From Candidatus Uhrbacteria bacterium RIFCSPLOWO2_01_FULL_47_17 (GTDB lineage Bacteria > Patescibacteriota > Patescibacteriia > UBA9934 > GWF2-40-263): a stretch of DNA of 64,000 bases. The notes beneath the pieces were generated by a model. That model searched no databases. It worked only from the letters and a program-made list of their open reading frames with translations, and was not told where the DNA came from. Each line of letters begins with the position of its first letter. The first letter of the stretch is position 1. Positions 10,309-63,773 of this stretch are shown one piece after another. The translations under genes were made by a program, and so were the position numbers. The stretch covers positions 13,926 through 77,925 of the forward strand of contig MGEI01000003.1 in assembly GCA_001791305.1 (NCBI GenBank), written 5' to 3'.

Positions 10309-10385
10309 AGGAGGGTCGTGACCCTCATGCGTAGACGAACAAACCTGTTGCGAGAAAAATAGAAATAGAGGAAAATGAGAGACAT

Positions 10386-11630
10386 ATGAAACGTCTCTCA
10401 TTTTTTGGTGTTGCGGTTGCGATTATCATTCTCTCCGCTCTCGGAATTTGGTTCGCGACCCGTCCCACGCCCGCGCCGTCCACATCCACTCCCGCCGCCA
10501 TCTCTCCTGCCGTGCCGGCCGATGCGCCCGCAACCGCATCACTCCTCGTGACGCCCATCGTCGCGTCTGTTGCGATTGCACCTTCCACAAATCCTTCCAC
10601 ATTTCAACCCATTACGGTTCCAACACAAGTCATCTCCGGTGCGCGTGTGAAGACAGATGTGACCGGTCGTGCACTCGTTGAAGGAACAAATACAACCGTC
10701 CTCGATTCAAATAGCGAGATGACGATTGCCGTCCTCGATACGCAAAAAAATCAAACACGTTTACAGCTCGAAGCGGGACAAGTTTGGTCGCGCGTCAAAA
10801 AACTTTCAGATAAGGGTGAGTTTTATGAAATTGAAACACAACTTGCACGCGCTTCCGTTCGAGGGACTTCATTTGGGATGAAGAAGGCTGGTAATGTTAC
10901 AACTGTGTATGTTGTCGAAGGGGTGGTAAATTTTGGATCACTTCCACCGGAAGAAAATATAGGATTTGAATCGATCGATGTCGTTGCAGGAAAAAAGGCT
11001 GTACTCCATGACTGGGATCTAAAACCCGTTGTGAGTGACATCACAGACAAAGATCGTCAGGACGCATGGTATGTATTCAACAATCCAACCAAAGCAACAG
11101 CCGCGGAATTGAATGTGGAGACAAGTTCGCAAACGTTTTTGAATCCTCCCACGAATACATCATCTACCACGGAAACTTCCGTGCCTCCTCGAACTCCAAC
11201 ACAAGCTACGCAATCTCCCACAACTCCTCGATCACCAACGCAAACAGCACAACCGTCAGCAGCGGAACCAGCACAAGAACCAGCTTCGTCGAGTCAGGAA
11301 GTTCAGCCAACAACACCAAATCAAACAATCTCTCCCGCAACGCCGGATTCTCCCGAACTTCTTCTTTCATCCGTTTCACCAAGTTCGCTTGTTGCAAGAA
11401 CCGGAGGAACGCTTACTTTGAAAGGGGCGGGATTTCAGGATGCACAGGTATTTTCCGTTTTTATTGGAAATACGCGCATCACATCTTTTACCACGATCGA
11501 CAATTCGACGATTCGACTAACCGTAAAAGCGTTTCAATTTGAACCGGGTGAATATGATGTCACAGTTGCAGGGGCATCGAACGCAACGGCAACGATTTCT
11601 TCTGCGCTCCTGATCAAATCCCAACCATAA
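10386..11630 (+). CDS. Exported or membrane-anchored protein with FecR-like domain, Pro/Thr/Ser-rich linker and C-terminal IPT/TIG-like domain
   Basis: N-terminal TM/signal anchor; FecR-like block (…ASVRGTSFGMKK…VYVVEGVVNF); low-complexity PT linker; IPT-like C-terminus. Confidence 0.5.
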   Translation: MKRLSFFGVAVAIIILSALGIWFATRPTPAPSTSTPAAISPAVPADAPATASLLVTPIVASVAIAPSTNPSTFQPITVPTQVISGARVKTDVTGRALVEGTNTTVLDSNSEMTIAVLDTQKNQTRLQLEAGQVWSRVKKLSDKGEFYEIETQLARASVRGTSFGMKKAGNVTTVYVVEGVVNFGSLPPEENIGFESIDVVAGKKAVLHDWDLKPVVSDITDKDRQDAWYVFNNPTKATAAELNVETSSQTFLNPPTNTSSTTETSVPPRTPTQATQSPTTPRSPTQTAQPSAAEPAQEPASSSQEVQPTTPNQTISPATPDSPELLLSSVSPSSLVARTGGTLTLKGAGFQDAQVFSVFIGNTRITSFTTIDNSTIRLTVKAFQFEPGEYDVTVAGASNATATISSALLIKSQP

Positions 11631-23800: not shown

Positions 23801-26800
23801 TCTGGTGTGACAGATACTGCTGGTAACGCCATTCAAGGAAACCAATCTGATGGAAGTTACGTCTTTACGTTCACCACGAGTTCAACCGCCACTTTTTCCG
23901 GAAATACGCTTACGGGTGGAACATTTGGTTCCGGTGCCTTTGTTGCTCCACGCGTAAATGGAATTTCACCTGCTCCTGGATCAATAGATGTTGCACGTAA
24001 CCGAAAAGTGGTTATTGATTTTTCCGTCCCTATGGCAGATGACGGAGGTGGGTACACATTGAAGAGTACGGTAAAACTGTTTTCCGTCTCAGGAACAACG
24101 GAAACAGATGTAAGCTCAACTGCCATTGATACAGTGACGCTCAACTCCGCAAAGACGAGCGCAACCGTTTCGCTTTTGAGCACGTTTAATACGGGTTTGT
24201 TTGCGGCAAGCACGAATTATCGTGTGAAGATCATGGGAACAGCAAAGGCTGCAAATGGAATGACACTCGCTCCGCCAGCAAGTGCGTCCACAACGGTCTC
24301 GTTCATGGGTGACTTCAAAACGAGTGCGACATCAGATACAGCTGCTCCAACCATTGTTGGAACATTTCCGGATACAGACGCAACGAGCGTTCCTGTGAAC
24401 GTTGGTGCGGTAAGTGTTGGATTTAGTAAAGACATGGATGTTTCCACACTGACATCAAGCAATATTTATCTTTCTGTCGGTTCAACAACTGTAAACGGAA
24501 CATTGGAATATCGTCCTCTTGAGCGCCAAGCGTACTTCTTACCAAAATCCGCATTGAGTGGCGCAACGACATACACATTAACGCTTTCAACGGGTGTGAA
24601 AGCAGCAAACGGAGTTGCTCTTGCATCAGCTGTAACGCGTTCCTTCACAACAGGGGTAGCGGATAGCACAGCGCCATCCATTTCCTTCATGAACGCAGAT
24701 GATTATTCCATCGCGATTACGTTCTCGGAGCCGATGAATGCCGCAAAAGCAACAGATACATTGAATTGGTCAACATCCGTCATTAATCCAGCCGTTTACA
24801 ATGTATTGAAATATGGAGCTGCAGGATTCAACGTAAGTTCAGCTGGAACAGCCGTTGCTTTGACGAGTGCTCAATTTAAGTATGACGCTGTTACAAACAC
24901 GGTCGTTATTTCTGGCTTGAGTTTGACTGCAGCAATCGGTCAAGAATTGTATGTGTCCATGGATATTTCTGGAACACCATCAAGTGGTGCACAAATCGCT
25001 CTTGATTTGTCCGGAAATGCGATTACATCTGCAGGAAACTCCTCACGTGCAACGTTGAAAAATAGCGCGACAACAAAAGGTGCGCTTGGACCAATGGCCT
25101 CTTCAACGGATGCGTCAACAACGGCTGGACAATTTATTCCAACCAACTTCTCAACCAACACCTTCGGTTTCGCTCCGCCAGTTGAAGTGAAGCCAATGAC
25201 AACAGGTGCGGGAAAAATAACAACATACGCTGCCCGTATCCCAATTTCCACTCAAATTGCAGCTGGCGGAACAGCTGTTCTGACATTTCCAGCTGGGTTT
25301 GATGTTTCTCTCGCAAGCCAAGATATCAATCACCCAATGCGTACAGACTTGAATGGTCCGGGCTCCGGAACGATTACATTTAGGTGTTTAACAAATGTTG
25401 CAGGTGGAAAATCTTGTGCATCAGGCGCAAACAGCGATGATACGGGCGCTGCTCAAGGTGGACTTGCCGATGACGGAGTTGTTGTAAACACAGCAGCCAG
25501 ATCTGTTACGGTTTATCTTTCCGCGGCAACAAACAGCACAGGACATGATTTTCTTGAGATTTTTCTTGCTGGAATCAAGAACTCAACTGTTCCAAAAGAT
25601 TCCTCAACATCTGGTTATACGGTTGACATTAAGACAAAGAGCTCAACAACGGTTCATGAGTCTTTGACCTCCGCACCATTCTACATTCAAGGTGTAACAG
25701 GAACCGCTTACACATTGACCGGAACCATCACAGCAACATCGAACGACCAAACGGGAACCATGAAGGTTTTCCTCATGTCTCCAATGACGGGTCCAATGGA
25801 AACAACCTCCGCAGATTTTGCTAGTGGTGCAACGGCAGCGTTTTCGTTCACAAACTTGTCAGCAGGGGACTACATGCTCATGACAGAGCAGTCGATTACG
25901 CTTGGAAACCGTGAGTATGCAGGAAAAACGTTTCCGGAACGCGTTGTCATCAGCGAAGCGGCAGATATTGCAAACAGTGGAGATAATGACGATACCATTC
26001 CTTACAACTTCACCCTTGCAAGTAACACAAGTGGAATTCCTGTCACCATCTCTATTGATGGACCTAGTGCAGAGCCGGTAGATGTTTTTGCGATGTCCCC
26101 TTCAGGATTCAAAGTCAAACAAGTTACGCTTGATTCAAATGCAGGTGCACAAAACGTCACTCTGTATGTTCCTGCTACAGGAACATATCAAATCGGTGTA
26201 GGTCCTCAGATGCCAAAAGGCATTATGAGTGGTCCGCCTCCTGCTCCGTCTTACTTACCACCACGTCCGATTGAAGTTAAAGCTACTGCAGGATCGCCTA
26301 ATACATTTGTGGAAAATAGCGGAACGGCAAATGATGGAACATTGGTCTTCACTCTCACAGCTTCAAACAAATCAATTAAAGGACTCGTTCAAGACGCTGC
26401 TGGAAAAGTGATGGCAAACGCTGAAGTTTTTGCCTACTCACCAAATGGCGGAATGGGAACACGCGCACAAGCAGATTTGGCAGGTGCGTTTACCTTGAAC
26501 GTTGTGGACGGAAGCTACATTGTTGGAGCATTCATTCCAGGTATGCCGCCTTCAAAGGAAGTTGCTGTGGCGGTTACTTCACATGCAACCACTTACCTGC
26601 TCATCAATGGCGCAACAACAGCCATCACACCAGCGGCAGCGGCAACATCGTTTATTCTCAAAGTTGCAAAGCCTGATTACACGATTTCAGGAACGGTGAC
26701 GGACGGAACAAACGTTATAACGGGCGCATCTATTTATGCTTACAGAACAGATGCTCCTGGACACGCCAACGCACAAACAGATTCTTCTGGAAATTACACA

Positions 26801-29518
26801 CTCTATGTGAGCACCGGAACATGGAAAGTTGGAGTATTCGTGCCACAATACGGACAACTCACAGAAAAAGACGTTGTGATTACAACAGCAAATGCGACAA
26901 GTCAAAATTTTGCTCCTTCTTCGACGGGAACATTCTATTCCGTATCAGGAACCGTGACATCAAACGGTGCTGCTGTTACGGGGGCATTCGTTCGTATCAT
27001 GGGAAATGCCACGTTTAATGAAGCTGTTACGGGAGTAGACGGAACCTACAGCGTGAAAGTCCCGTCTGGAAATGGATATGTCGTGCGCGCGTTTGTTCCT
27101 GGTGTAGGAGATACACCGGAACTCGCTGCCTTTAACGTGACGGCAGACGTAACAGGAAAAGATATCACCGTTGGAACATTGAATACAGTAACTTTCGTGC
27201 TTTCAACCGCCGCAACTGCCATGATTGAAGCGTTCACATCAGATGGACGAGGAAATCGTATTCAAATCAATAACACAACATCCGGAACGATGTCATTGCC
27301 AAACGGTGATTACACCATCCGCGCAAACATTCAGGGAGTAAACATTGGTCTCACAGATATCGCAGCGACCAGTGGATCAACAGTTTATAGCTCAACAACA
27401 GGAATCGTAACGGTGAACGGAGCAGAATCCCTTACCATTACCCTTCCAACACAAAGAACGATTACGGGAACCGTTCGTGATAGTGCAGGACTTTTGGCTG
27501 ATGCGTGGGTTGAAATCAGTAGTGCAACATCTGGAATCCGTTTTGGAACAAAGAGTGATGTAAATGGAGCCTTTACGCTTAAGGTGGCAGATTCAGCAAC
27601 CGCTTATCGTCTGAACGCCATGAAGCCAGGATATTTCCGTGAGCCAAGCTCCCTTACCGTCAATGGATCAGATCCAGCGGCACAGGTCCTCACGTTAACA
27701 TCCGCAACAACAACCATTACCGGTCAAGTTCTGGTTGGATCTAACCCTGTCGCAAACGCCTTCGTACGTGCGGAAAAACAAGGAGGTGGATTTGCAGGAA
27801 CACAGGCAGATGCAAGCGGAAATTATACGTTGTCTGTTACGTCCGGCGTTTGGAGTGTTTATGCTGTCGGTCAGGGATATGCAGAAAAAGCATTTGCTTC
27901 AAACCCAATTGACGTCACTGCTGGATCCGTCACAGGAAAAACTATTACGCTGTCAACGACCGTGACGCTTGATCCACCAAAATCGAAGTCCATTACGCCA
28001 TCCTCAGGAGGAACCTTAGAAGATACAACCGCAGGAATTTCCTTAAACATTCCAGCGAATGCCTTTGGTTCCGTTTCTGAGGCTGCATCACTTACTTCGA
28101 CAGAAACAAGCAACATCCGCCGAACAGATTCTGCAAGACCTGTTAAAGGAATTGAAATTAAAGCGACGGATTCAGACGGAAATGCGATTACAACATTGAA
28201 TAATGACGCGACCGTCGAAATGACGTTAACACAGGCTGAGCTTGCTGCAACGGCTTCTGACTCAGACGCATCCATCAACACGATGGCGGAAGTCGACAAG
28301 TTGCGTATGGCCTACTTTGACGAAACAACCGCGAACTGGGTGACTCTTGAAACGACAAGAACATGTGAAAACGCAAGTGGTGTCGTGATTACAGATGCAA
28401 CGGCATTAGACACTGCCGTAGAATTTACAGATAATTGTGCTGTACTCAAAATTGCTGCGCTCACAGATCACTTTTCTCTCTACGCCCCAGTTGTCTCAAC
28501 AAGTTCTGAAGCCCCATCAACTCCAAGTGGATTTGCAGGATCTTCAAATTCTACATCTTCCGTAAACTTGTCATGGACTGTCGTGTCGGATGCAACTTCA
28601 TATGATATTTATCGAAGTAGTTCATCAAGTGGAACATTCACACGTCTTGGAAGTGAACCAACAGTCAGTTCTGGATCAACGGTCACATATGCCGACACAG
28701 GTCTCACATCTAGCACAGCATATTATTACAAGATCACCTCATTAAATACTTCGGGCGAATCCGCTTCGTCGAGTGTGATTTCCGTCATAACAGTAGGCGC
28801 AAGTGGTGGAGGTGGTTCATCAGGTCCTGTCACCCTTCCATCAACAACTACAACGACTACGACAACAACAACCGTCGCACCAACGACAACAACACCTGTC
28901 GCAGCTGCACCAAAGGTTGCTGAGGTTGTAACGGTTAAAGCAAGTCCGGTTGCACAGTTGATTCAAAATCCCGCAAAGGCGAGTGAACTTATCGCTGCGC
29001 TTGGCCTTACAACCAAACCAGCAGACGAAAAGAAATATTCAGCTCTCATAAAGTCTGATGCTCTCGCATTCAAAGTGAAATTAACCGCTGAGCAACAGAC
29101 CACGATTACAAACTTCGTCACATACGGTGCCTCTGCCGAAACCGTAAAACTCGGTGCGGGTGAACGTCGTGCGGTCGTTCGTGATTATCTTGAGACCGTC
29201 GGACGCTCAGAAGTGATCTGGGAAGATGTCCAGCGCATGGCAACAGGTCAAAAATTAGTCAATCGCAATTTGGCAAAAGAACAAGCGCAAGTAAACCGTG
29301 TGCTCGCAAACTTTAAGCACATGGTTGGCCACGCGCCAAACTTTAAAGTGCCAGCAGAAGATATCGCTTGGAACACCATGATGTATCGCATCCGTTTTCC
29401 ACGTGATCTTACTGTAGAAAAACAAGGAATCGTAGAATTCAAAGGGCTCTACAAGCGCAATCCAAGCACACCAATGGAATGGTCCATTGTGCGCGCTCTC
29501 GGATACGCCTTGAAATAA
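20831..29518 (+). CDS. Giant secreted surface protein (2,895 aa) with Ig-like, CarboxypepD_reg/PEGA-like and FN3 repeats, poly-Thr linker and distinct C-terminal domain
   Basis: N-terminal signal peptide; Thr/Ser/Ala/Gly-rich beta-repeat modules; repeated GTVTDG...GNYTL motifs; FN3-like LSWTVVSDATSYDIYRSS...YYYKITSLN; TTTTTTTTTT linker. Confidence 0.7.
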   Translation: MNNFVPFFMFDSFFERSVRQASKTLKFCATLFFVAATFLWSVSPLGLLSARPVFAASAVTVSNGTINANFPGALIQASSPATSIAKVSVTASAASKTLTSVQVNFSGSGFATSDLLDLATDDASGVALYNDAGGTPGSFDGTDAVVTLASGPAFSGTNLVLTPATPVALTSGTAVIFHVVIKTAAGITHNDVIDATVPINGVVTSDGNGPTSAFVVNNLRADTAAATIQSVSGFAGSPTLTVKFSKPVQKVGIGNLSFVGAGDPFTYVDGGGGATAQTIVAVQHTAGQDFATVNMSTNLDAEDVDGSPATLAAGTNKIADMAGNALGTSTVNIGSPLGISTANVQLATVAAVYDANSTLVTFEAVGGTSPYSFTANSAGDTTILSNLGLSLATNGKLTGTVANRTGTHQVNIKVTDSTGTPLTSTRLYNINVATSGGAVPAISGLNPAGGAQSASALSITLTGLNTSFTGSSPASSVSIALPSGASEPNGITVGAITVNSATSITFPVTIAANATTGPRDVQVTTGSQTVTMPNGFNVFASGASGLTLLLPSDASTGNPMPPTFQFNPSSHADTTGYLITVATTSSFSTVAWQYIFPKPADAQNSNGSHCSTTNCNLTYGAGNFSIMRQPTALSPDTVYYWKVSTYSGNFISINPDTSVPLETTTVRSFRTTASVLDASAPNIMHRPAFSATASTNLVLFARITDDKTTVSTTPALSTKLFHCQGAACTPTTQVIGTSVGSGYFSFTIPSNAIGIAGTITRYYLQATDSTNTANFKKADASPFQLTSAAAGAFSIAGTVKDSTNTCSAEIQGAKVFAEGSGFYATTDGSCAFTISGLPAGTYDLVAVMDDFADRMISSIPAGSTAIPFKLTNGVAGGAGGDITKPRVKFSGPMDGMTNMPGGDTNFKVSVVFDKAMSQSSINAMDLTVNEVNLTTGALTDITSTKGSWTYYNSAPSPAVMGIPNESNMAVWAFTGGNTFGDNKTIAVVATSGVTDTAGNAIQGNQSDGSYVFTFTTSSTATFSGNTLTGGTFGSGAFVAPRVNGISPAPGSIDVARNRKVVIDFSVPMADDGGGYTLKSTVKLFSVSGTTETDVSSTAIDTVTLNSAKTSATVSLLSTFNTGLFAASTNYRVKIMGTAKAANGMTLAPPASASTTVSFMGDFKTSATSDTAAPTIVGTFPDTDATSVPVNVGAVSVGFSKDMDVSTLTSSNIYLSVGSTTVNGTLEYRPLERQAYFLPKSALSGATTYTLTLSTGVKAANGVALASAVTRSFTTGVADSTAPSISFMNADDYSIAITFSEPMNAAKATDTLNWSTSVINPAVYNVLKYGAAGFNVSSAGTAVALTSAQFKYDAVTNTVVISGLSLTAAIGQELYVSMDISGTPSSGAQIALDLSGNAITSAGNSSRATLKNSATTKGALGPMASSTDASTTAGQFIPTNFSTNTFGFAPPVEVKPMTTGAGKITTYAARIPISTQIAAGGTAVLTFPAGFDVSLASQDINHPMRTDLNGPGSGTITFRCLTNVAGGKSCASGANSDDTGAAQGGLADDGVVVNTAARSVTVYLSAATNSTGHDFLEIFLAGIKNSTVPKDSSTSGYTVDIKTKSSTTVHESLTSAPFYIQGVTGTAYTLTGTITATSNDQTGTMKVFLMSPMTGPMETTSADFASGATAAFSFTNLSAGDYMLMTEQSITLGNREYAGKTFPERVVISEAADIANSGDNDDTIPYNFTLASNTSGIPVTISIDGPSAEPVDVFAMSPSGFKVKQVTLDSNAGAQNVTLYVPATGTYQIGVGPQMPKGIMSGPPPAPSYLPPRPIEVKATAGSPNTFVENSGTANDGTLVFTLTASNKSIKGLVQDAAGKVMANAEVFAYSPNGGMGTRAQADLAGAFTLNVVDGSYIVGAFIPGMPPSKEVAVAVTSHATTYLLINGATTAITPAAAATSFILKVAKPDYTISGTVTDGTNVITGASIYAYRTDAPGHANAQTDSSGNYTLYVSTGTWKVGVFVPQYGQLTEKDVVITTANATSQNFAPSSTGTFYSVSGTVTSNGAAVTGAFVRIMGNATFNEAVTGVDGTYSVKVPSGNGYVVRAFVPGVGDTPELAAFNVTADVTGKDITVGTLNTVTFVLSTAATAMIEAFTSDGRGNRIQINNTTSGTMSLPNGDYTIRANIQGVNIGLTDIAATSGSTVYSSTTGIVTVNGAESLTITLPTQRTITGTVRDSAGLLADAWVEISSATSGIRFGTKSDVNGAFTLKVADSATAYRLNAMKPGYFREPSSLTVNGSDPAAQVLTLTSATTTITGQVLVGSNPVANAFVRAEKQGGGFAGTQADASGNYTLSVTSGVWSVYAVGQGYAEKAFASNPIDVTAGSVTGKTITLSTTVTLDPPKSKSITPSSGGTLEDTTAGISLNIPANAFGSVSEAASLTSTETSNIRRTDSARPVKGIEIKATDSDGNAITTLNNDATVEMTLTQAELAATASDSDASINTMAEVDKLRMAYFDETTANWVTLETTRTCENASGVVITDATALDTAVEFTDNCAVLKIAALTDHFSLYAPVVSTSSEAPSTPSGFAGSSNSTSSVNLSWTVVSDATSYDIYRSSSSSGTFTRLGSEPTVSSGSTVTYADTGLTSSTAYYYKITSLNTSGESASSSVISVITVGASGGGGSSGPVTLPSTTTTTTTTTTVAPTTTTPVAAAPKVAEVVTVKASPVAQLIQNPAKASELIAALGLTTKPADEKKYSALIKSDALAFKVKLTAEQQTTITNFVTYGASAETVKLGAGERRAVVRDYLETVGRSEVIWEDVQRMATGQKLVNRNLAKEQAQVNRVLANFKHMVGHAPNFKVPAEDIAWNTMMYRIRFPRDLTVEKQGIVEFKGLYKRNPSTPMEWSIVRALGYALK

Positions 29519-55417: not shown

Positions 55418-56122
55418 TTAGGCGGGAAATTCCGCGAGATCGGCTTTCGCAATCATGACGAGAATATGATAACGCACTGAGATTGTCTTGCGATCATATT
55501 CGTTTGTCGCTGGGTCGTAGTATGTCTCTGTCAGAGTTTTGAGTTCGTTTTGAATGTGTCTCACAACCGAGCGACGCTGTTTGTGTGTGAGACCTAAATC
55601 CTCATCCGAGAAACCTCCACGCGTTTTTGCTAGGCGAATTTCGTGAAGCTCCCAGACAAGAACGTCAATGGTTTTGGACAGATCTTTTATTTCGCGTAAA
55701 TGTTTGACGAACAAACGTCCATGTTCAAACCAGTACGCGCGTTCAAGAAGCTCGATAGTTCGTTCAGTGAGATTGAATTCAGCAAGGGTGAACTTGTAGC
55801 GTGTTGTCATGTTCTGAACAAATTTGAGGAGCGTTGGAGTCGACTCGATAAGAAACGTATTGCTTGTTGCACGCGCAACAGCGTCTTTGATTGCAAGGAT
55901 CGCTCCTTCTCGTTCAAGCTCCATAAGCTCATCTGTGGACGCGCCAAGTTGGCTTGGGGAAATGCGTCGCTTGAGCATTTGTTCTGTAAAAGACAATCCG
56001 ACACGACACACAATGTGTGGGTGCGGTTTTGCTGTACGAGCTATTTCGAGTTCCTCGCGAAGACATCGAATGATGGCTTCAATAGGAATCTGCTCATTAA
56101 GCAAAATAGGATCAAAGATCAT
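55418..56122 (-). CDS. Solitary hypothetical protein with a C-terminal R-x4-H (HEPN-like) motif
   Basis: 234 aa, helical; ...HKQRRSVVRHIQNE contains R-x4-H; flanked by terminators; no other domain recognised. Confidence 0.35.
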   Translation of the reverse strand: MIFDPILLNEQIPIEAIIRCLREELEIARTAKPHPHIVCRVGLSFTEQMLKRRISPSQLGASTDELMELEREGAILAIKDAVARATSNTFLIESTPTLLKFVQNMTTRYKFTLAEFNLTERTIELLERAYWFEHGRLFVKHLREIKDLSKTIDVLVWELHEIRLAKTRGGFSDEDLGLTHKQRRSVVRHIQNELKTLTETYYDPATNEYDRKTISVRYHILVMIAKADLAEFPA

Positions 56123-56964: not shown

Positions 56965-57744
56965 TTAGAGATGCGAGTCGGCGAAAAGATCGATGGCGGA
57001 TGTGACGTAGCCCATGGCTTTTCCGTCGTGCATCGCATCTTCAGGCTGCGGAGTTCGAAGTCGACCTTCCGCATCGATGTTGATGTTCGGAAATTCTTTC
57101 ACGATTGGTGCGAGCAGATGGATGGTCTCTTGCGAGAGTCCACCCGCGACACCGGTTCCAAGATTTGGATGACGTGTGCGAACCGCGCGCAGGACCTCAA
57201 TCGCTCGCGCGGAATCCATCTCGAGACCATGTCCGCCCGAGAGGTCGAACAAAATGTCCGTGACGTGATCTTTGTACTCGTCCAGCCGTTCCGCAAGACG
57301 CTGCGGATTTTCGTCTACCTGTCTGAATGCCGTTGCTCCGATTTGGAGAACAACGCGCCGCATGCGCTTGGTCAGCATCGCTGTGGCGAGCTGATCTATG
57401 TTCGGCCACACCATGTTCAGTTGCACGCCGTCGCAAAACGGTCCCGCACGATCCATGAGTTGCATGAGCTGAACGTCGATCGTGTCGCGGTCATCGGTCG
57501 CGAAATGCGCGAGGTTGATCGCGAGCGGATCGTTCACAAAGCACGAAGCCAAGTCTTCAATGAGCGGCGTTCGCCCGGGCCACTTGTTTTGTTCACCACG
57601 GAGCGTTTTCGCACTCGCGAGCGCACCGACCATGAGATGATGATGAACTTGGAAGTGACCACGGATCGTCGCGAGCAGAAACTGTGCAAGATCATGATTT
57701 GCCTGGATAAATCCCGTCACACCAATGTAGGGTTGCGGACGCAC
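56965..57744 (-). CDS. TIM-barrel protein resembling phosphoribosylanthranilate isomerase (TrpF-like); function uncertain
   Basis: GTG start with AGGAG SD; CDGVQLNMVWP, ILFDLSGGHG, GVAGGLSQETIH resemble the TrpF phosphate-binding elements. Confidence 0.35.
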   Translation of the reverse strand: MRPQPYIGVTGFIQANHDLAQFLLATIRGHFQVHHHLMVGALASAKTLRGEQNKWPGRTPLIEDLASCFVNDPLAINLAHFATDDRDTIDVQLMQLMDRAGPFCDGVQLNMVWPNIDQLATAMLTKRMRRVVLQIGATAFRQVDENPQRLAERLDEYKDHVTDILFDLSGGHGLEMDSARAIEVLRAVRTRHPNLGTGVAGGLSQETIHLLAPIVKEFPNINIDAEGRLRTPQPEDAMHDGKAMGYVTSAIDLFADSHL

Positions 57745-57850
57745 GTGTTTCTCCTTTGTATGAGATCGACATTCCCGGTCGATCGGGGTCAAATGACAGC
57801 GATTTATAATATAAAAGAGCAGATTTGTCAATTTATGCTGTTTGATGAGA

Positions 57851-57886
57851 TTGACAATTGGCGGTTTTTTTGGTATTCTCACGCGT
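57851..57886 (+). promoter_or_regulatory. Promoter TTGACA-N17-TATTCT plus conserved downstream CACGCGTC, upstream of the TerC gene
   Basis: The 16-mer GGTATTCTCACGCGTC recurs (minus strand) at 44227-44242 with its own TTGACA 17 nt upstream. Confidence 0.4.
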
Positions 57887-57944
57887 CGATTTTGGAACGG
57901 TTCCAAGTTCGATAAAGTGTTCAATACAGGAGAAAAAAAGACAG

Positions 57945-58688: not shown

Positions 58689-58830
58689 CAACCGGCGCGA
58701 CGCGCCATGGAGAAAAAAAAGCTTTACCGGTCTGTAGAAACACAGCCGGTTTTTTTGTTTTGGACTTTCTGTTATGATTTCGTTGCAAAGCAGGGCGGGT
58801 CGTGACCCGCCCCTACACATACATATATTT

Positions 58831-59142
58831 ATGCAAAAACAAATCCAATGGGTCGACTTGATTGCTTGGGATCCTGTTCAAAAAAAGGGGACGATGTGTG
58901 CCCGTGTTTTGTTTCGTGATGAAAAGATTCAATTTCAAGGTGAACTCGCGCTTGTGAGTGAATTGAAAGATGGACTTACCACATATCCGGACGCGCAGTT
59001 GGTGTATCCGGAAGATGGAATGAAATTTTTGGAAGCGGTCGCCGCGTCGTTTCGCTCTCCCTCACTGCTTGCAACAGACATTCAGAGCGCAGATGAACCG
59101 TCGCCTTTTGGTGATCGTGCAATGACATTTAAACAGGAATAA
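58831..59142 (+). CDS. Small hypothetical protein, first gene of a two-gene operon with the atypical kinase
   Basis: 104 aa from the ATG at 58831; stop overlaps the kinase start (ATGA-type junction at 59142/59144). Confidence 0.3.
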   Translation: MQKQIQWVDLIAWDPVQKKGTMCARVLFRDEKIQFQGELALVSELKDGLTTYPDAQLVYPEDGMKFLEAVAASFRSPSLLATDIQSADEPSPFGDRAMTFKQE

Positions 59143-59143
59143 T

Positions 59144-60817
59144 ATGCAACGATCTGAATTCTCTGAAGGTCAACCACCGGAAATACCAAAACCAAAAGAG
59201 TCGAAAGAGCCTTCGATGGCTTCGTTTGTGCATGAGGCACTTGCGCATGAATGGAAGCAATTGAAATTTAATGCATTGATGTATGAAGATGTGGTTCAGA
59301 TGTTTGAAAACATTCGCGGTGTTTGTGAGGACAAATTCGTAAAGCTAGTTTTAGATAAAGAAGAACGCGCGGCAAAGCTGCGCGAGATTGCGGAGATTCT
59401 TTTAACAGACTTTACACGCATGTTGCCCGCTCGCGTGAATGCGGATTTATTTGATGTTGTCGCGGATATTTTTCCGGAAGTCAAAGAGGATGTGGCAGTT
59501 TTTGCGCTTTCAAATCTTCCAGAAACATCAGAATTTGCCAAGTGTCGATTTCGATTTATCCAAGGATTGTACCGTGGTGATCGAATAAAGTTTGTAAAGA
59601 TTTTTTCAGAACTTTCTTCATTGGAACGTCTCGAGGCAGTGCGTTTAGCATCCTCTATGGATCGCGAGCCTGTTTTTGTTTGGTATGAAAAAATGGGTAT
59701 GGAGCCGGATGATGCGACCGTTGCACAAATCATCGAAGATGATCCAAAAACCATTGTTGGATATGCAACCGTGCATAAACTCACGTCGAATCAAGTGAGA
59801 TCCATGCTTGAACAATTTGATTCCTTCACACAAGATTCCGCACGTCGTGCGCTGCAGATTCCATTGCGCTTTAGAGCGCATGAAAAAGAATTTGCCGAAG
59901 ACGAAGAGGACGAACCTCCACGACGCATGAAGGATGAGAACGAAGTGAGTCGTGAGTTTGCCATTGATGTTGAGCGCATGAAAGACCTCTCGAACAAGCT
60001 TGCAGACGCGATGATCCGTGCGTATCCAGAACGCGCGGAATATTTACGCGCAAAAAAAGAAAAAGAGGCAGTGTTGTTTGGCTCCATCGAACGCTATGGA
60101 GAACTTTCGAGTGGAATGAACAGTCCGTTGTTTGTGTATTTGAAAGACAAAGATCACACGCCTGCGGTTTATAAACCACAAAAGCGTGAAGCAAAAGGAT
60201 TGCGCGAAAACATTCCGGCGGGTTCATACGCGGCCCGCGAATGGCTCGCATATCAAATCGATCAAGCCTTACAAATTGGAACAACCCCTGTCACAATTTT
60301 GCGTGAAGGCGTGCTTGGAGTTGGTTCTGTGCAAGAATGGAAAGTAGGAAGAAATGCGTTTCGTGGGGATTATAAAAACAAACCAAACCCTGAACAGTTG
60401 GAGGATTTGGTGTTTGATGACGTGGTGAAACAAAACACGGATCGTCACGGACAAAATGTGATTATTGGGTTTGATGGTTCTGTGAACGGAATTGATCATG
60501 GATTAATTTACACAGAAGACGAACAATATTGGATCATCTGTTCACCTGGATATGAGTTTCGCGGCAAAGAGCCATCTGAGCGTGTGCAAAATCGCATTAA
60601 GCAATTTCGTGCGGCAGAGGAGGTGGGTACCATTTTACGCGAGTGTTTTGATGCCGCCCTCGGACGCGCGGCAAAACGCGCTTGGGGAAAATTTGAATAC
60701 GGAACCGAATTTTTATCGCCAACCTATCCAGAGCACAGCCCAAGGTTTCCGCTTACCATTCAACGCGCATCGTTATCCCAAAGGGAGCATGAGTTAAGAA
60801 GCGCGGGTAAAAAATGA
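59144..60817 (+). CDS. Atypical kinase with PI3K/PI4K/HipA-like catalytic core and helical N-terminal domain
   Basis: C-terminal ...AVYKPQ (Lys) ... NTDRHGQNVII (D-R-H-x-x-N catalytic loop) ... IDHG (DFG-equivalent); N-terminal 330 aa helical repeat. Confidence 0.5.
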   Translation: MQRSEFSEGQPPEIPKPKESKEPSMASFVHEALAHEWKQLKFNALMYEDVVQMFENIRGVCEDKFVKLVLDKEERAAKLREIAEILLTDFTRMLPARVNADLFDVVADIFPEVKEDVAVFALSNLPETSEFAKCRFRFIQGLYRGDRIKFVKIFSELSSLERLEAVRLASSMDREPVFVWYEKMGMEPDDATVAQIIEDDPKTIVGYATVHKLTSNQVRSMLEQFDSFTQDSARRALQIPLRFRAHEKEFAEDEEDEPPRRMKDENEVSREFAIDVERMKDLSNKLADAMIRAYPERAEYLRAKKEKEAVLFGSIERYGELSSGMNSPLFVYLKDKDHTPAVYKPQKREAKGLRENIPAGSYAAREWLAYQIDQALQIGTTPVTILREGVLGVGSVQEWKVGRNAFRGDYKNKPNPEQLEDLVFDDVVKQNTDRHGQNVIIGFDGSVNGIDHGLIYTEDEQYWIICSPGYEFRGKEPSERVQNRIKQFRAAEEVGTILRECFDAALGRAAKRAWGKFEYGTEFLSPTYPEHSPRFPLTIQRASLSQREHELRSAGKK

Positions 60818-60919
60818 TGGGGATACAAAAAGAGTTCAGTATTTACTGAACTCTTGATTCTTTTCTGATTTATTGTTACTCTTTTGCCGAAACACGTCAC
60901 ACCTACAAGTACATCGCGT

Positions 60920-61044: not shown

Positions 61045-61119
61045 GGCCTCATCGTCTAACGGTTAGGACAGCAGGTTCTCATCCTGTAAATCGGAGTTCG
61101 ATTCTCCGTGGGGTCACCA
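61045..61119 (+). tRNA. tRNA-Glu (anticodon CUC), CCA encoded
   Basis: Manual fold: acceptor GGCCTCA/TGGGGTC (2 G-U pairs), D arm GTCT-AACGGTTA-GGAC, anticodon stem GCAGG/CCTGT with loop TTCTCAT, T arm CGGAG-TTCGATT-CTCCG, 75 nt. Confidence 0.7.
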
Positions 61120-62623
61120 CAAGGGACTCGCCATCATGGCGGGTCTTTTGTTTTTGTAAAATGAGCGAAATTCTTGTAGTTCCAAAACCTTTTCCCTTAA
61201 AATACGGAATTCCTTCAGGAAAAATCAATTTTTGGAACTTAATTCTTCGTTCTCCTTGTAAGTCATTCCATTGTTGATCAAGATGCTCAACAAATTTGGT
61301 TGCATAAGTAATTGCGAATTCAACATCTAGTTGGTCAGTCTTGTAATCATTCATGGATACGCGGATTGTTGCCATTTCGTTTTCAATCTCAGATTTTCGT
61401 TCTTGATATACCTCTTTCGTATAAGATCCATCCTCAAACATCTCACAAATTCTTTTGCGCTTGGTTTCCAACACACCAAGTTGTTTTACGTATTTTGTTG
61501 CATCTGATTCAAAACTACCGCGTTCTTCTGCCCATCTATCAATTACGCTTTCTCGTAAAAGATCTAAGTGCTGTTTAGTCGGTTCTAATTCTTGCAGAAC
61601 TTTCATAAAGTCTCTTTCCACCGTTTCTTTTGAGAGTGATTTGTTTTGCATGGCACAATCTGGAGTGTAGCAATGATAATATCCGTACTGACCGCCAACT
61701 CCTCTCGATCGACTACCAGTGACAGTGTTGTTACATGCTCCGCATCGAAGAATCTTCTTTAATGGAAAAAGAGGATTAAAGCTTGATCGCGGTTGTTTCT
61801 TAATGCGTTTGCCTTTTCGGATTGCGATGATCTGATACATTTCATCTTCTGTGATCATCGCTGTGTGAAGACCTTTTATCTCTTCATCTTTCACCCATGG
61901 ATTCTGAATAATCCCGGCATAGTATTTCAAATACTGACCAAGCATCTTGTCGACCATTTGCTTTGTCGTTTTTCTATTACGTATTTTCTCTAAGCCTTCC
62001 TGTTTCAAGTAAGCACAAATTTCAGATAACTCGATCTCACCACGAGAGAATCTTTTTAATGCTCTCTGGAGAATAGGAAAAACAACCGGATCAATCCCAT
62101 CAGCTGTATTTTTCTTCTCTCCGTGCATCTTGGAACGATTACTCAAATAACCGAGCGGAGGCTTCCACGGCGTAATTCCTTGCCTTACACGCGCGATCAT
62201 TCCGTCAACGCTTCTTTGAGAGCGAACTGCGTTATCAAACTCTGCTGTTCCGGCCAGAATTGTTTCAAGAAACTTTTGCGAAGGATTGTTTCCAATAAGT
62301 TCCGTGACTGAATGAAGGGTCGTACCGTAATCTTGTAAGAGCTTGCGAATGCTGAAATGATCTTCCGTATTTCTTGCAAAGCGATCAACTTTTACAACAA
62401 CAAATGCATCTATCTTTCCTTTATTCTGATGACAGAATGCAAGTGCACGAAGAAACTCAGTTCGCTCAGACGATTTTGCAGACTCTCCCTCTTCTCGGAA
62501 GACCTTAAGAACTTCTAAACCTTTTTCCAGACAATACTGTCGACATTTTCTTTCTTGATCTTCAAGAGATGTACCATTAACCTGTTCATTTGAACTAACG
62601 CGTGTGTAAATAATTGCTTTCAT
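61079..62623 (-). CDS. Large serine recombinase (integrase) of an integrative element
   Basis: MKAIIYTRVSSNEQ resolvase-type catalytic Ser; recombinase domain; C-terminal Cys zinc ribbon/coiled coil; 3' end overlaps tRNA-Glu by about 40 nt. Confidence 0.85.
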   Translation of the reverse strand: MKAIIYTRVSSNEQVNGTSLEDQERKCRQYCLEKGLEVLKVFREEGESAKSSERTEFLRALAFCHQNKGKIDAFVVVKVDRFARNTEDHFSIRKLLQDYGTTLHSVTELIGNNPSQKFLETILAGTAEFDNAVRSQRSVDGMIARVRQGITPWKPPLGYLSNRSKMHGEKKNTADGIDPVVFPILQRALKRFSRGEIELSEICAYLKQEGLEKIRNRKTTKQMVDKMLGQYLKYYAGIIQNPWVKDEEIKGLHTAMITEDEMYQIIAIRKGKRIKKQPRSSFNPLFPLKKILRCGACNNTVTGSRSRGVGGQYGYYHCYTPDCAMQNKSLSKETVERDFMKVLQELEPTKQHLDLLRESVIDRWAEERGSFESDATKYVKQLGVLETKRKRICEMFEDGSYTKEVYQERKSEIENEMATIRVSMNDYKTDQLDVEFAITYATKFVEHLDQQWNDLQGERRIKFQKLIFPEGIPYFKGKGFGTTRISLILQKQKTRHDGESLVVTPRRIELRFTG

Positions 62624-62633
62624 ACGTTGATTC

Positions 62634-63773
62634 TTACATTTTGGTTTCGAAGAGGTTGATGTATTTTGAGAATACGAACATTCGATTTCTTTTGAATCCG
62701 GTTGTTTCCTTCAAAATCCCTAATTTTTCAAATTCAGTGAGTAAAGTAATTGCAGACGGTGTTGAAATATTCAACCACTGAACAACTTGCTTACTGTTTA
62801 CGATTGGTTGTGAATAAAGTTTATTTAAGAACTCACGCGCAACAGGTGCACGTTTTCCCATTTTCAGAATGCGTTTTTCAAGATCCTCACGCAGGTCGAT
62901 GATTTTTTGGAATGTTTCGACTCCACTTTTAGCCGTTTCTGCAACACCAACAAGAAAGAATCTGATCCAGTGTTCAATGTCATTTGATGTTCTTACATGT
63001 GTCAGTGCATCGTAGTATTTGCCTTTATTACGCTCAAAAAAATCCGATAAATACAACGTGGGCTTTTGAAGCAGGTTGTTATTCACTAAATAGAGCGTAA
63101 TCAAAAGACGACCGATACGTCCGTTTCCATCTAAGAAAGGGTGAATGGTTTCAAATTGATAATGACTGATCGCGACACGGATCAAATGTGGAACCTCAAT
63201 CTTTTTGTTGTGCCAAAACTTTTCCAGATCACTCATGAGTGCAGAAACTTCGGTTGGATGTGGTGGAATAAAGATAGCGTCTTTAAGTGTTGCACCCCCG
63301 ATCCAGTTTTGACTCGTTCGAATATCACCCGGCATTTTGTGCTTTCCCCTTACGCCTGAAAGAAGAATCTTGTGAGTGTCTTTTAAGAGCCTTGTTGAAA
63401 GAGGTGTCTTCGAGAGCTCCTTAATCGCTCCGTTCATCGCCTTGGTGTAATTTTGAACCTCTGACCAGTCATCACGACGTTCAGGATCAATCTCTTCTTC
63501 TGGCAACAACGCCTCATCCATGCCCGTTTTTGTTCCTTCAATGCGACTCGATGTTGTTGCTTCTTTAAGGACGTGCATTCTGATATAGAAATCAACGTCC
63601 GGAACGAAACGAGAAAATGCATTCAGTTCGGCAAGATGGCGTGTTGCTTCTTCGAGAAGAACGTCGATTCTTGGGTCGGTCCAGGAAAACGGATGATTAA
63701 CCGGAGTAGGACTAAAACTTTTGTACTTATCCTGTTGCTTATAGATTCCTGCTTTGAAGACATTGCTTTGCAT
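62634..63773 (-). CDS. Fic-family AMPylator (class II, N-terminal inhibitory motif) with C-terminal winged-helix region
   Basis: Canonical [12 protein letters not shown] Fic motif; upstream TSSRIEGT = (S/T)xxxE(G/N) inhibitory motif. Confidence 0.85.

What the first reader, a model, noticed from the sequence alone, without database searches (positions are those of the whole stretch)
58831..60817. Two-gene operon encoding a PI3K/PI4K/HipA-like atypical kinase with a large helical N-terminal domain
The 557-aa protein ends in a catalytic core with Lys (AVYKPQ), a D-R-H-x-x-N catalytic loop (NTDRHGQNVII) and a DHG metal-binding motif. This is the hallmark of the PI3K/PI4K superfamily, which also includes the HipA toxin kinases. 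It is translationally coupled to a 104-aa upstream gene with no HTH, unlike HipB. The pair could be an unconventional toxin-antitoxin or phage-defence pair, or a eukaryote-like effector. The GGGTCGTGACCC dyad sits in its promoter.
Basis: partly seen in the sequence, partly recalled or inferred. Interest (0 to 1): 0.65.

Follow-up and report, generated by a model that had tools for sequence, protein, structure and literature searches.

The report
Kinase toxin with small immunity partner
A groundwater Candidatus Uhrbacteria genome carries a self-contained two-gene unit, a PI3K/PI4K-type kinase plus a small unknown protein, and the same pair recurs on phage head proteins laid out like injected toxins with an immunity gene, so it is most likely a new kinase toxin-immunity (toxin-antitoxin-like) module.

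Summary
A 103-aa gene (58831-59142) and a 557-aa gene (59144-60817) form one transcription unit bounded by terminator hairpins.

**Kinase.** The C-terminal 290 aa are an intact PI3K/PI4K-superfamily kinase with K344, D433-x-H435-x-x-N438 and D451-H-G. The AF2 model has pLDDT 82.5, and every top Foldseek hit is a PI3K. A family profile hits type II PI 4-kinases at E=7e-17. It is not HipA and not a true SCO1664-family member. The N-terminal helical domain is specific to this clade.

**Partner.** The main new result concerns the small protein. It models as a confident α/β fold with no match among solved structures. It sits beside related kinases at about 18 independent loci, always on the same strand. 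Gene order varies: 4 loci have it upstream and 14 downstream.

**Phage context.** In at least three phage lineages the kinase is fused to the C-terminus of a MuF/minor-head protein, and a portal-kinase fusion protein (P0149, no genomic context) also exists. In two of the MuF lineages the partner gene follows immediately. This is the polymorphic-toxin layout of a C-terminal toxin plus a downstream immunity gene.

**Best reading (about 0.5).** The kinase is a toxin or effector and the partner is its inhibitor. The substrate is unknown.

**Main counter-evidence.** In the window's own clade the pair sits in conserved core-gene synteny.

The parts
58726..58757 (+). Intrinsic terminator of the upstream TerC-family gene (hairpin 58726-58750 followed by a U-run). 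Marks the 5' boundary of the two-gene unit.
   Evidence: RNA fold -12.1 kcal/mol followed by UUUUUUUGUUUUGG. TerC assignment from Pfam.
58793..58812 (+). GC-rich 20-nt palindrome GGGCGGGTCGTGACCCGCCC (core dyad 58797-58808), ending 18 nt before the partner's ATG. Either an operator-like site or a 5'-UTR hairpin; role unknown.
   Evidence: Sequence. Two copies in the window against 0.03-0.21 expected. 8-bp hairpin within a 50-nt segment folding at -18 kcal/mol (z = -3.1), with no U-tract. Not conserved upstream of the L003 orthologue.
58831..59142 (+). Small partner gene: 103 aa, acidic, predicted α/β fold, new family. Inferred immunity/antitoxin protein that inhibits the kinase.
   Evidence: ORF. 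Orthologues at 34-40% identity sit directly upstream of orthologous kinases. Homologues lie directly downstream of related kinases with HMM E 1e-21 to 5e-11 and at further loci. AF2 pLDDT 84.6. No PDB fold match, best E 0.47. No Pfam hit.
59144..59878 (+). Kinase gene, N-terminal all-helical domain (aa 1-245; helices aa 25-236). Clade-specific; role unknown (regulatory or sensor domain is inferred).
   Evidence: AF2 secondary structure and pLDDT. phmmer finds it only in the window clade, E 1e-6 to 2e-9. No Pfam or PDB sequence match.
59879..59938 (+). Acidic disordered linker (aa 246-265, includes EDEEDE). Length-variable in the population.
   Evidence: pLDDT below 50 for aa 246-265. P0001 is a near-identical 539-aa variant lacking 18 aa here.
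59939..60817 (+). PI3K/PI4K-superfamily kinase domain (aa 266-557). Key residues: K344 (nt 60173-60175), αC-like E366, catalytic loop NTDRHGQN (nt 60434-60457; D433, H435, N438), metal-binding IDHG (nt 60491-60502; D451). Inferred toxin/effector.
   Evidence: PF00454 E=0.004-0.008, below the gathering score. TIGR03843 E=7e-20, below cutoff. Foldseek: all top 50 hits are PI3Ks, probability 1.0. Clade profile hits PI4KB at 8e-4 and PI4K2A at 0.01. Family profile hits PI4K2B/2A at 7e-17, co-linear over all motifs. Motifs conserved in all partner-linked kinases.
60830..60855 (+). 11-bp hairpin 13 nt after the kinase stop codon. Probable terminator and 3' boundary of the unit.
   Evidence: Terminator scan. 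RNA fold -14.7 kcal/mol, z = -3.6.

Best explanation
The two genes form a self-contained toxin-immunity (toxin-antitoxin-like) cassette. The 557-aa protein is a catalytically intact cytoplasmic kinase of the PI3K/PI4K superfamily, and its kinase core is the effector. The 103-aa α/β protein encoded just upstream is made from the same transcript. It binds and neutralises the kinase.

The same kinase-plus-partner module is used by phages. There the kinase is the C-terminal cargo of capsid-internal MuF/minor-head proteins and the partner gene follows it. This is the standard polymorphic-toxin layout, in which the small downstream gene protects the producer.

In the Uhrbacteria clade the module is chromosomal. 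The partner gene has moved in front of the kinase gene, which is the type II TA order. The kinase has also gained a clade-specific N-terminal helical domain, possibly regulatory.

**Shown:** the kinase fold and intact active site; conserved same-strand adjacency of the two families through at least two order flips; fusion of the kinase to phage head proteins.

**Inferred:** toxicity, inhibition by the partner, and physical binding. The substrate (protein, nucleotide-sugar or lipid) is unknown.
For: **The kinase is real and looks active.**
- K344, E366, D433, H435, N438 and D451 are invariant in close relatives and conserved in every partner-linked kinase.
- AF2 gives pLDDT 82.5, with K344 on a β-strand and E366 on the following helix.
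- Foldseek returns only PI3Ks at the top. Profile searches hit PI4KB, PI4K2A/B and FAM20.

**The partner is linked to the kinase.**
- An HMM built only from upstream-type partners finds the ORF directly downstream of the kinase in L004, L005, L006 and L011 (E 5e-11 to 1e-21) and nothing else among 1426 ORFs.
- Metagenome and IMG/VR loci raise the count to about 18 distinct loci. All are same-strand and adjacent: 4 upstream and 14 downstream.
- The window clade is sister to a clade in which every assessable kinase has a downstream partner.

**Conflict-system context.**
- L026 group: Phage_Mu_F, then a HINT/intein, then the kinase. The partner gene overlaps the kinase stop, and a head protease and major head protein follow.
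- L057-L060: portal, then MuF (phrog_241, 2e-83) fused to the kinase, then the partner 20 nt downstream, then the major head protein.
- L061 is a minor head protein fused to the kinase. P0149 is a portal fused to the kinase.
- The published rule for MuF and other polymorphic toxins is a C-terminal toxin with a small immunity ORF immediately downstream (PMC5576092, PMC3482391).

**Other support.**
- N-terminal regions of the kinases are highly variable and modular.
- Flanking genes differ between lineages outside the window clade.
- The window unit is insulated by terminators on both sides.
Against: - No toxicity, binding or inhibition has been tested, and no complex model could be run.
- In the window's clade the pair sits in conserved core-gene synteny. 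The neighbours are PBP, Mur ligase, UPRTase and TerC in L001, and PBP and Mur ligase in L003, at only about 35% kinase identity. This looks like vertical inheritance of a housekeeping function rather than a mobile TA.
- There is no PADLOC hit.
- The partner has no DNA-binding domain, unlike typical type II antitoxins.
- The window kinase is not fused to any delivery domain.
- A small gene downstream of a MuF fusion could also be an assembly chaperone or an activating subunit.
- The phage evidence comes from metagenomic contigs. Isolated phage genomes gave only one weak hit.
Confidence: 0.5

Rival explanations
1. Housekeeping signalling enzyme. The kinase is a non-toxic regulatory or metabolic kinase of Uhrbacteria and relatives. 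The small protein is its obligate subunit: an activator, an adaptor or the phospho-acceptor substrate. Phages borrowed the pair for host takeover.
For: - Core-genome synteny of the pair in three diverged genomes next to cell-envelope genes (PBP, Mur ligase, TerC).
- Single copy in the window.
- GC content like the neighbouring core genes and unlike the adjacent island.
- The related actinobacterial/Chloroflexi SCO1664 family sits in a conserved His-phosphatase / DUF3090 / kinase triad, which looks like a phospho-switch rather than a toxin.
- Partner position 82 is Ser/Thr in 15 of 18 sequences and Glu in 2 of them, a pattern sometimes seen at phospho-sites.
Against: - A substrate or activator of the cell's own kinase has no obvious reason to be encoded directly after a capsid-packaged MuF-kinase fusion in two independent phage lineages.
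- No residue that could accept phosphate is invariant in the partner.
- Outside the window clade the flanking genes are unrelated from locus to locus, as for a mobile cassette.
- The partner is unrelated to DUF3090 (hhalign probability 0.3%).
Confidence: 0.3
2. Phosphoinositide or other lipid kinase. On this reading it is a bacterial counterpart of type II PI 4-kinase that modifies membrane lipids of the cell or of a host. This is the 'eukaryote-like effector' reading.
For: - The closest solved relatives by family profile are PI4K2B and PI4K2A (E=7e-17), with all motifs co-linear.
- The top structural matches are Vps34 and other PI3Ks.
- UniRef already names the protein 'PI3K/PI4K catalytic domain-containing protein'.
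Against: - The fold does not fix the substrate. The next-best relatives are FAM20 protein and sugar kinases (E 1e-12 to 5e-8).
- The Cys-rich palmitoylation insert of PI4KII is absent (sequence), and no other membrane-binding feature is evident in the sequence.
- No signal peptide or secretion-system context was found.
- CPR bacteria are not known to make phosphatidylinositol (established knowledge, not tested here).
- This reading does not explain the conserved small partner.
Confidence: 0.08
3. A divergent HipBA/HipBST-type kinase toxin-antitoxin system, i.e. a true member of the HipA family.
For: - A kinase paired with a small upstream gene.
- 6 of 46 relatives give weak hits to PF20613 HipA_2 (best E 1e-5), and the L026 kinase hits it at 2e-4.
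- HipS is a precedent for a roughly 100-aa antitoxin without an HTH (PMC9325769, title and abstract seen).
Against: - The window protein has no HipA-family hit in Pfam or NCBIfam, and no HipA structure appears among the sequence or fold hits.
- The catalytic loop is the PI3K/PI4K-type DRHxxN.
- There is no HipB-like HTH gene.
- The partner model matches no HipS or HipA N-subdomain structure.
Confidence: 0.03

Closest known systems
Type II phosphatidylinositol 4-kinases (PI4K2A/PI4K2B; Pfam PF00454 PI3_PI4_kinase)
   Same: The kinase core is homologous. The motifs align co-linearly: aVYKPxxxE with AVFKPKNEE (β3 Lys), REaAY-vD with SEAGASLVD, GSvQ-f with GSFQLF, NtDRHxxN with NTDRGNDN, and aIDhG with AIDNG. 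The family profile scores E=7e-17. Fold matches to PI3K/PI4K structures have probability 1.0.
   Different: - The window protein itself scores below the Pfam gathering score (16.5 against 27.1 bits).
- It lacks the Cys-rich palmitoylation insert.
- It is bacterial and cytoplasmic.
- It is coupled to a small partner gene and, in relatives, fused to phage head proteins.
- Lipid substrate is unproven.
SCO1664 family (NCBIfam TIGR03843) of Actinobacteria and Chloroflexi
   Same: It is the nearest named bacterial family (E=7e-20). Its members are minimal PI3K/PI4K-like kinase domains of 230-270 aa, and their function is likewise uncharacterised.
   Different: - The score is far below the family cutoff (71 against 172 bits).
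- SCO1664 proteins have a DRK...H catalytic loop instead of DRHxxN.
- They sit in a His_Phos_1 / DUF3090 / kinase context with no partner homologue.
MuF-family polymorphic toxins of temperate phages, with a downstream immunity gene (Jamet et al. 2017, PMC5576092; Zhang et al. 2012, PMC3482391)
   Same: Relatives of the window kinase are the C-terminal domain of MuF/minor-head proteins placed just after the portal gene. The partner homologue is the small ORF immediately downstream.
   Different: - The window protein has no MuF or other delivery domain.
- The partner is upstream in the window.
- The MuF survey (PMC5576092) does not contain the word 'kinase' at all, and the 2012 catalogue lists only a lantibiotic-synthetase-like 'Tox-Peptide Kinase'.
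- Toxicity of this domain is untested.
HipBA / HipBST kinase toxin-antitoxin systems
   Same: They work in the way proposed here: a protein-kinase-like toxin neutralised by a small protein encoded upstream in the same operon. In HipBST the neutraliser, HipS, is about 100 aa and has no HTH.
   Different: - The kinase family is different: no HipA_C or HipA_N hit, and the catalytic loop is the PI3K/PI4K type.
- There is no HTH partner.
- The partner fold is unrelated.
FAM20 secretory-pathway kinases (Fam20A/B/C; PF06702)
   Same: They are the second-best solved relatives of the family profile (E 1e-12 to 5e-8). 9 of 46 relatives touch PF06702.
   Different: They are eukaryotic, secreted, and act on proteins or xylose. 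The window protein itself gives no hit to them.

Membership tests
PI3K/PI4K catalytic-domain superfamily (PF00454) | Profile match at or above Pfam's gathering score | tested here: inconclusive
   The window protein scores 16.5-17.6 bits against a gathering score of 27.1. 39 of 46 relatives match at E<0.01. Sister kinases pass the threshold: L015 29.7, L006 28.2 and L017 28.0 bits.
PI3K/PI4K catalytic-domain superfamily (PF00454) | ATP-binding Lys on β3, DRHxxN catalytic loop, and D-x-G metal-binding motif, in that order | tested here: met
   K344, D433-R-H435-G-Q-N438 and D451-H-G453 are invariant in A1 and conserved across 21 related kinases.
PI3K/PI4K catalytic-domain superfamily (PF00454) | Bilobal kinase fold matching solved PI3K/PI4K structures | tested here: met
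   AF2 pLDDT 82.5, pTM 0.77. All 50 top Foldseek PDB hits are PI3Ks with probability 0.99-1.0, best E=8e-7. Global TM is only 0.25, so just the kinase core superposes.
Type II PI 4-kinase (PI4K2A/B) | Specific sequence relationship over the whole catalytic domain | tested here: met
   The family profile A3 hits PI4K2B/2A at E=7e-17 as the best solved relatives, with three co-linear segments. With the clade-only profile A1 the hit is weak: PI4KB 8e-4 and PI4K2A 0.01.
Type II PI 4-kinase (PI4K2A/B) | Cys-rich palmitoylation insert; phosphorylation of PI at the 4-position | tested here: not met
   No Cys-rich insert lies between the β3 Lys and the αC-like helix; the window sequence there is KPQKREAKGLRENIPAGSYAAREW. 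Lipid kinase activity cannot be tested with these tools.
SCO1664 family (TIGR03843) | Score above the NCBIfam cutoff, plus the conserved His_Phos_1 / DUF3090 neighbourhood | tested here: not met
   71.4 bits against a cutoff of 172.4. The neighbours are TerC and the partner, not His_Phos_1 or DUF3090. The catalytic loop is DRHxxN, against DRK..H in SCO1664 proteins.
HipA toxin kinases (HipBA/HipBST) | HipA_C/HipA_N profile match, with a HipB HTH or HipS-like partner | tested here: not met
   The window protein has no HipA hit. The partner has no HTH or Pfam hit and no fold match to any solved structure.
Polymorphic toxin-immunity systems (MuF type) | Toxin domain at the C-terminus of a delivery or head protein | tested here: not met
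   Not met for the window protein, which is stand-alone with a clade-specific helical N-terminus. Met for its relatives L026, L057-60, L061 and P0149.
Polymorphic toxin-immunity systems (MuF type) | Small cognate immunity gene immediately adjacent and co-directional | tested here: met
   The partner is adjacent and on the same strand at about 18 distinct loci. In the window it is upstream with a 1-nt spacer.
Polymorphic toxin-immunity systems / type II TA | The kinase is growth-inhibitory, and the partner neutralises it by binding | not testable with these tools
   This needs expression assays or at least a complex prediction.
Type II toxin-antitoxin modules | Antitoxin with a DNA-binding domain that autoregulates the operon; patchy, mobile distribution | tested here: inconclusive
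   No DNA-binding domain was detected in the partner. A palindrome lies upstream, but it is not conserved in orthologues and recurs at an unrelated locus. The window clade is syntenic, whereas other lineages show unrelated contexts.

The most novel reading that the evidence does not exclude
The pair defines a previously unrecognised toxin-immunity family. The toxin is a PI3K/PI4K-superfamily kinase closest to eukaryotic type II PI 4-kinases and FAM20 kinases. The immunity protein is a new roughly 90-aa α/β fold. Phages deploy the module as capsid-packaged MuF or portal cargo that is injected with the DNA, and CPR bacteria keep it as a chromosomal TA-like pair. If true, it would add a new biochemical class of kinase toxin. 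It would also point to bacterial and phage conflict systems as the prokaryotic reservoir from which type II PI4K/FAM20-like kinases arose.
Probability: 0.4. Interest if true: 0.75.

Novelty: new variant of a known kind. Interest (0 to 1): 0.6.

Why it matters
Few kinase toxins are known (HipA, Doc, zeta). Published catalogues of polymorphic and MuF toxins do not list a PI3K/PI4K-type kinase. This work gives a testable module: an intact kinase, a cognate small protein with a new fold, and natural fusions to phage head proteins that imply delivery into cells.

Confirming it would:
- add a new toxin chemistry and a new immunity family;
- give a first functional handle on a kinase domain present in at least 712 cluster representatives (50% identity) at E≤0.001, including the uncharacterised SCO1664 family;
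- place the nearest prokaryotic relatives of eukaryotic type II PI 4-kinases in conflict systems.

It is also one of the few candidate TA-like systems described from the poorly understood Candidate Phyla Radiation.

Tried and rejected
1. **Homology of the N-terminal helical domain to the PI3K 'PIK' helical domain.** Foldseek aligned the whole protein to Vps34 helical-plus-kinase structures, which prompted the idea. Global TM is only 0.25. The domain has no sequence match outside the window clade. Sister kinases carry unrelated N-termini. Rejected as unsupported.
2. **Partner equals DUF3090, the neighbour of SCO1664 kinases.** hhalign probability 0.3%. Rejected.
3. **Partner as a fused domain.** No natural kinase-partner fusion occurs among the 188 proteins collected up to that point.
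4. **Defence-system membership.** No PADLOC hit for either protein. The neighbouring SoFic gene belongs to a separate, lower-GC element behind tRNA-Glu.
5. **Isolated phage genomes.** tblastn with the window and L026 kinase domains gave one weak hit and none.
6. **Bacillus phage G gp16.** It is a weak structural match to the partner (E 0.016, TM 0.49), and it lies two genes after the portal. Neither gp15 nor gp16 shows sequence similarity to the kinase or the partner. Left as a curiosity.
7. **Promoter placement.** The only σ70-like hit would start transcription downstream of the ATG. Unresolved.
   - The GTDB genome scan found only 2 loci.
9. **Literature.** Nothing was found on SCO1664/TIGR03843 function, DUF3090, or PI3K/PI4K-like toxins.
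Full report
**1. What is in the sequence**

The two ORFs exist as described. The small gene runs 58831-59142 and encodes 103 aa. The kinase gene runs 59144-60817 and encodes 557 aa. Both are on the + strand and are separated by TAA-T-ATG.

Homologues of the small protein start at the position equivalent to 58831. This favours that start over the upstream ATG at 58774.

The unit is insulated on both sides. A hairpin plus U-run at 58726-58757 ends the upstream TerC gene. An 11-bp hairpin at 60830-60855 follows the kinase stop.

It occurs exactly twice in the window, against 0.03-0.21 expected. The other copy, at 10313, lies between uvrA and a FecR/TIG plus CHASE2-cyclase operon. The palindrome is not found upstream of the orthologous pair in L003, and L001 has an assembly gap there. 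No credible promoter could be placed. Its role therefore stays open.

**2. Source organism**

The exact kinase sequence is on record in 34 collection blocks (24 contigs read). The contigs shown come from ENA metagenome assemblies (two labelled ANAN16) and JGI metagenomes. In NCBI it is a hypothetical protein of Candidatus Uhrbacteria MAGs; the co-resident UvrA names RIFCSPHIGHO2_02_FULL_47_44. UniRef already labels it 'PI3K/PI4K catalytic domain-containing protein'.

**3. The kinase**

*Sequence evidence*
- Against Pfam the window protein is sub-threshold for PF00454: E=0.008, 16.5 bits, against a gathering score of 27.1.
- Against NCBIfam it hits the SCO1664 family, TIGR03843, at E=7e-20 but far below that family's cutoff.
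- There is no HipA hit.

*Structure model*
- AF2 with 11 sequences gives pLDDT 82.5 and pTM 0.77.
- The model has an all-helical N-terminal domain (aa 25-236), a disordered acidic linker (aa 246-265) and a bilobal α/β kinase domain (aa 267 to about 530).
- K344 lies on a β-strand, E366 on the following helix, and the DRHxxN and DHG motifs lie in the C-lobe.
- Foldseek against the PDB returns only PI3Ks among the top 50 hits. The best are Vps34 helical-plus-kinase structures at E=8e-7 and probability 1.0. TM is only 0.25, so just the kinase core superposes.

*Profile evidence*
- A profile of the window clade hits PI4KB (8e-4) and PI4K2A/B (0.01).
- A broader profile of 46 domain-only relatives hits type II PI 4-kinases at 7e-17, FAM20A/B/C at 1e-12 to 5e-8, and Vps34 at 2.6e-4.
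- The alignment to PI4K2A/B is co-linear over the β3 Lys, the αC-like helix, the GSxQ segment, the catalytic loop and the IDxG motif.
- All of these motifs are conserved in every related kinase examined. SCO1664 proteins differ by carrying a DRK...H loop.

*Conclusion on the kinase.* It is an intact PI3K/PI4K-superfamily kinase. At family level it is nearest to type II PI4K. It is not a HipA and not a bona fide SCO1664 member.

**4. The N-terminal domain**

phmmer finds the N-terminal domain only in the window clade, and weakly (E 1e-6 to 2e-9 over about 230 aa). Relatives carry quite different N-termini. I therefore do not read the Vps34 'helical plus kinase' match as homology to the PIK helical domain.

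**5. The partner: the main new result**

*Close orthologues.* Full-length orthologues at 33-37% identity are few. In L001, L002 and L003 each is preceded by a 91-105-aa gene that is 34-40% identical to the window's small protein. The partner family is tiny in the word-indexed search, with 9 clusters, and has no Pfam hit.

*More distant kinases.* Shorter or more distant kinases have a homologous small ORF directly downstream. This holds for L004 (a Patescibacteria MAG), L005, L006 (another Uhrbacteria MAG) and L011. An HMM built only from the upstream-type proteins finds exactly these ORFs, at E 1e-21 to 5e-11 among 1426 ORFs.

*Metagenome and viral contigs.* A metagenome scan and an IMG/VR scan add more loci. 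In total about 18 distinct loci have the partner adjacent to the kinase and on the same strand. Fourteen have it downstream. Four have it upstream: the window, L001/L002, L003 and, independently, L024.

*Phylogeny and remaining loci.*
- In a rough NJ tree the window clade is sister to a clade in which every assessable kinase has a downstream partner.
- Several 'partner-less' kinases still have an unrecognised 76-109-aa ORF 3-18 nt downstream. One of these, in L041, is weakly similar at E=5e-5.

*Partner structure.* The partner models confidently (pLDDT 84.6) as a small α/β domain. It has no significant match among solved structures (best E 0.47). Its best matches among viral models are weak hits to uncharacterised small phage proteins.

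Linkage that survives at least two flips of gene order is strong evidence that the two proteins work together.

**6. Context that suggests what the pair does**

*Phage fusions*
- **L026 group of metagenome contigs.** The kinase is the C-terminal domain of an 833-1006-aa protein with an N-terminal Phage_Mu_F domain and a HINT/intein-type segment carrying a nested endonuclease. The partner gene overlaps the kinase stop. A head-maturation protease and a major head protein follow.
- **IMG/VR contigs L057-L060.** The order is portal (phrog_145, 7e-120), then MuF/head-morphogenesis (phrog_241, 2e-83) fused to the kinase, then the partner 20 nt downstream, then the major head protein.
- **L061.** A minor head protein is fused to the kinase.
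- **P0149.** A portal-like domain is fused to the kinase.
- **L056.** A viral contig with a stand-alone kinase plus the partner.

*Published rule.* This is the layout of MuF-type polymorphic toxins: a head protein carries a variable C-terminal toxin, and a small immunity ORF lies immediately downstream (PMC5576092; PMC3482391). Neither paper lists a PI3K/PI4K-type kinase toxin. I found nothing else on such a toxin or on SCO1664 function.

*Chromosomal contexts.* Outside the window clade the flanking genes are unrelated from locus to locus. Examples are LemA/TPM, ECF sigma factors, an FkbM methyltransferase and DUF3841. This is what a self-contained cassette would show.

**7. Most likely mechanism (confidence about 0.5)**

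The kinase is a toxin or effector, and the partner is its protein inhibitor, that is, an immunity protein or antitoxin. In the Uhrbacteria clade the partner gene lies first and is closely coupled to the kinase gene, which is the type II TA order. The kinase has also gained a clade-specific helical domain that may regulate it.

- **Shown:** the fold, the intact catalytic residues, the conserved linkage and the phage head-protein fusions.
- **Inferred:** toxicity, binding and inhibition.
- **Unknown:** the substrate. The nearest relatives phosphorylate lipids (PI4KII), proteins (FAM20C) or sugars (FAM20B), so the fold does not decide it.

**8. Main counter-evidence and rivals**

- **Core-gene synteny.** In the window clade the pair sits in conserved core-gene synteny. 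L001 has PBP, Mur ligase, UPRTase, TerC and then the pair. L003 has PBP, Mur ligase, an M50 peptidase and then the pair. This holds at only about 35% kinase identity, and GC content matches the core genes. This fits a vertically inherited regulatory kinase with an obligate subunit or substrate. I give that rival 0.3.
- **Lipid-kinase or eukaryote-like effector reading (0.08).** It does not explain the partner, and no secretion or membrane feature supports it.
- **HipA membership (0.03).** It fails every test applied.
- **Defence-island location.** The pair is not in a defence island. The SoFic-type Fic gene and the serine recombinase downstream lie beyond tRNA-Glu (61045-61119) in a lower-GC segment, probably an integrated element. 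In L001 different genes occupy that side.

**9. Verdict**

The kinase call is right. The HipA, effector and promoter parts of the interpretation are not supported. The toxin-antitoxin idea gains real, though indirect, support from an unexpected direction: phage MuF fusions.

For novelty I rate it a new variant of a known kind, namely a kinase toxin plus immunity pair with a new toxin family and a new immunity fold. Interest is 0.6.

Noticed in passing
window 61045-63773: tRNA-Glu(CTC) at 61045-61119 is immediately followed on the minus strand by a large serine recombinase (61079-62623; its 3' end overlaps the tRNA) and a Fic protein (62634-63773) that matches PADLOC SoFic at E=7e-122. GC drops to 0.39-0.42 here. 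This is probably an integrated element or defence islet at the tRNA, separate from the kinase pair. The recombinase gene is not called in two JGI assemblies of the same region (L008, L009).
   Followed up: partly
window 10296-10345 (dyad core 10313-10324): The second copy of the GGGTCGTGACCC dyad lies 5 nt after the uvrA stop codon and upstream of a FecR/TIG-domain gene (10386-11630) and a CHASE2-adenylate/guanylate cyclase gene (11640-13553). Both dyad copies precede signalling operons, so a shared regulator site is possible. Only two sites exist.
   Followed up: partly
window 20831-29518: A single 2895-aa ORF on the + strand, a giant protein of the kind common in CPR genomes. Not examined.
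   Followed up: no
window 59879-59938 (kinase aa 246-265): A near-identical population variant (P0001, 539 aa) lacks 18 residues of the acidic linker (AEDEEDEPPRRMKDEN region). This fits the AF2 prediction that the segment is disordered and dispensable.
   Followed up: partly
L032 752-4633: A 1294-aa protein joins an N-terminal 2H phosphoesterase (2'-5' RNA ligase-like; weak Acb1 anti-CBASS hit) to a C-terminal kinase of this family. No partner was detected. It may be another conflict-related architecture.
   Followed up: no
L012 4330-5720; L013 3771-5741: SCO1664-family kinases sit in a His_Phos_1 (- DUF3090) - kinase operon and carry a DRK...H catalytic loop instead of DRHxxN. The family is apparently uncharacterised in the searchable literature.
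   Followed up: partly
L044 3755-6458: Two tandem paralogous kinase domains of this family lie in one locus, followed 3 nt later by a 109-aa ORF with no detectable similarity to the partner.
   Followed up: no
L062 (Bacillus phage G) 12336-16071: gp16 (124 aa) is a weak structural match to the partner (Foldseek E=0.016, TM 0.49). It lies directly after gp15, the gene that follows the portal gp14 and so occupies the usual MuF position. Neither gp15 nor gp16 has sequence similarity to the kinase or the partner.
   Followed up: yes
literature (PMC3482391, table of toxin domains): The 'Tox-Peptide Kinase' domain of Zhang et al. 2012 is listed with the motifs YKP[KR] and DxHxEN. These resemble this family's VYKP[QR] and DRHxxN. 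It may be a related domain described under another name. Sequences were not compared.
   Followed up: no
window 55418-56122 (-) and 56965-57924 (-): Two conserved neighbouring genes (234 aa and about 260-319 aa) have no Pfam hit. Counterpart genes of similar size and position exist in the syntenic locus L001.
   Followed up: no
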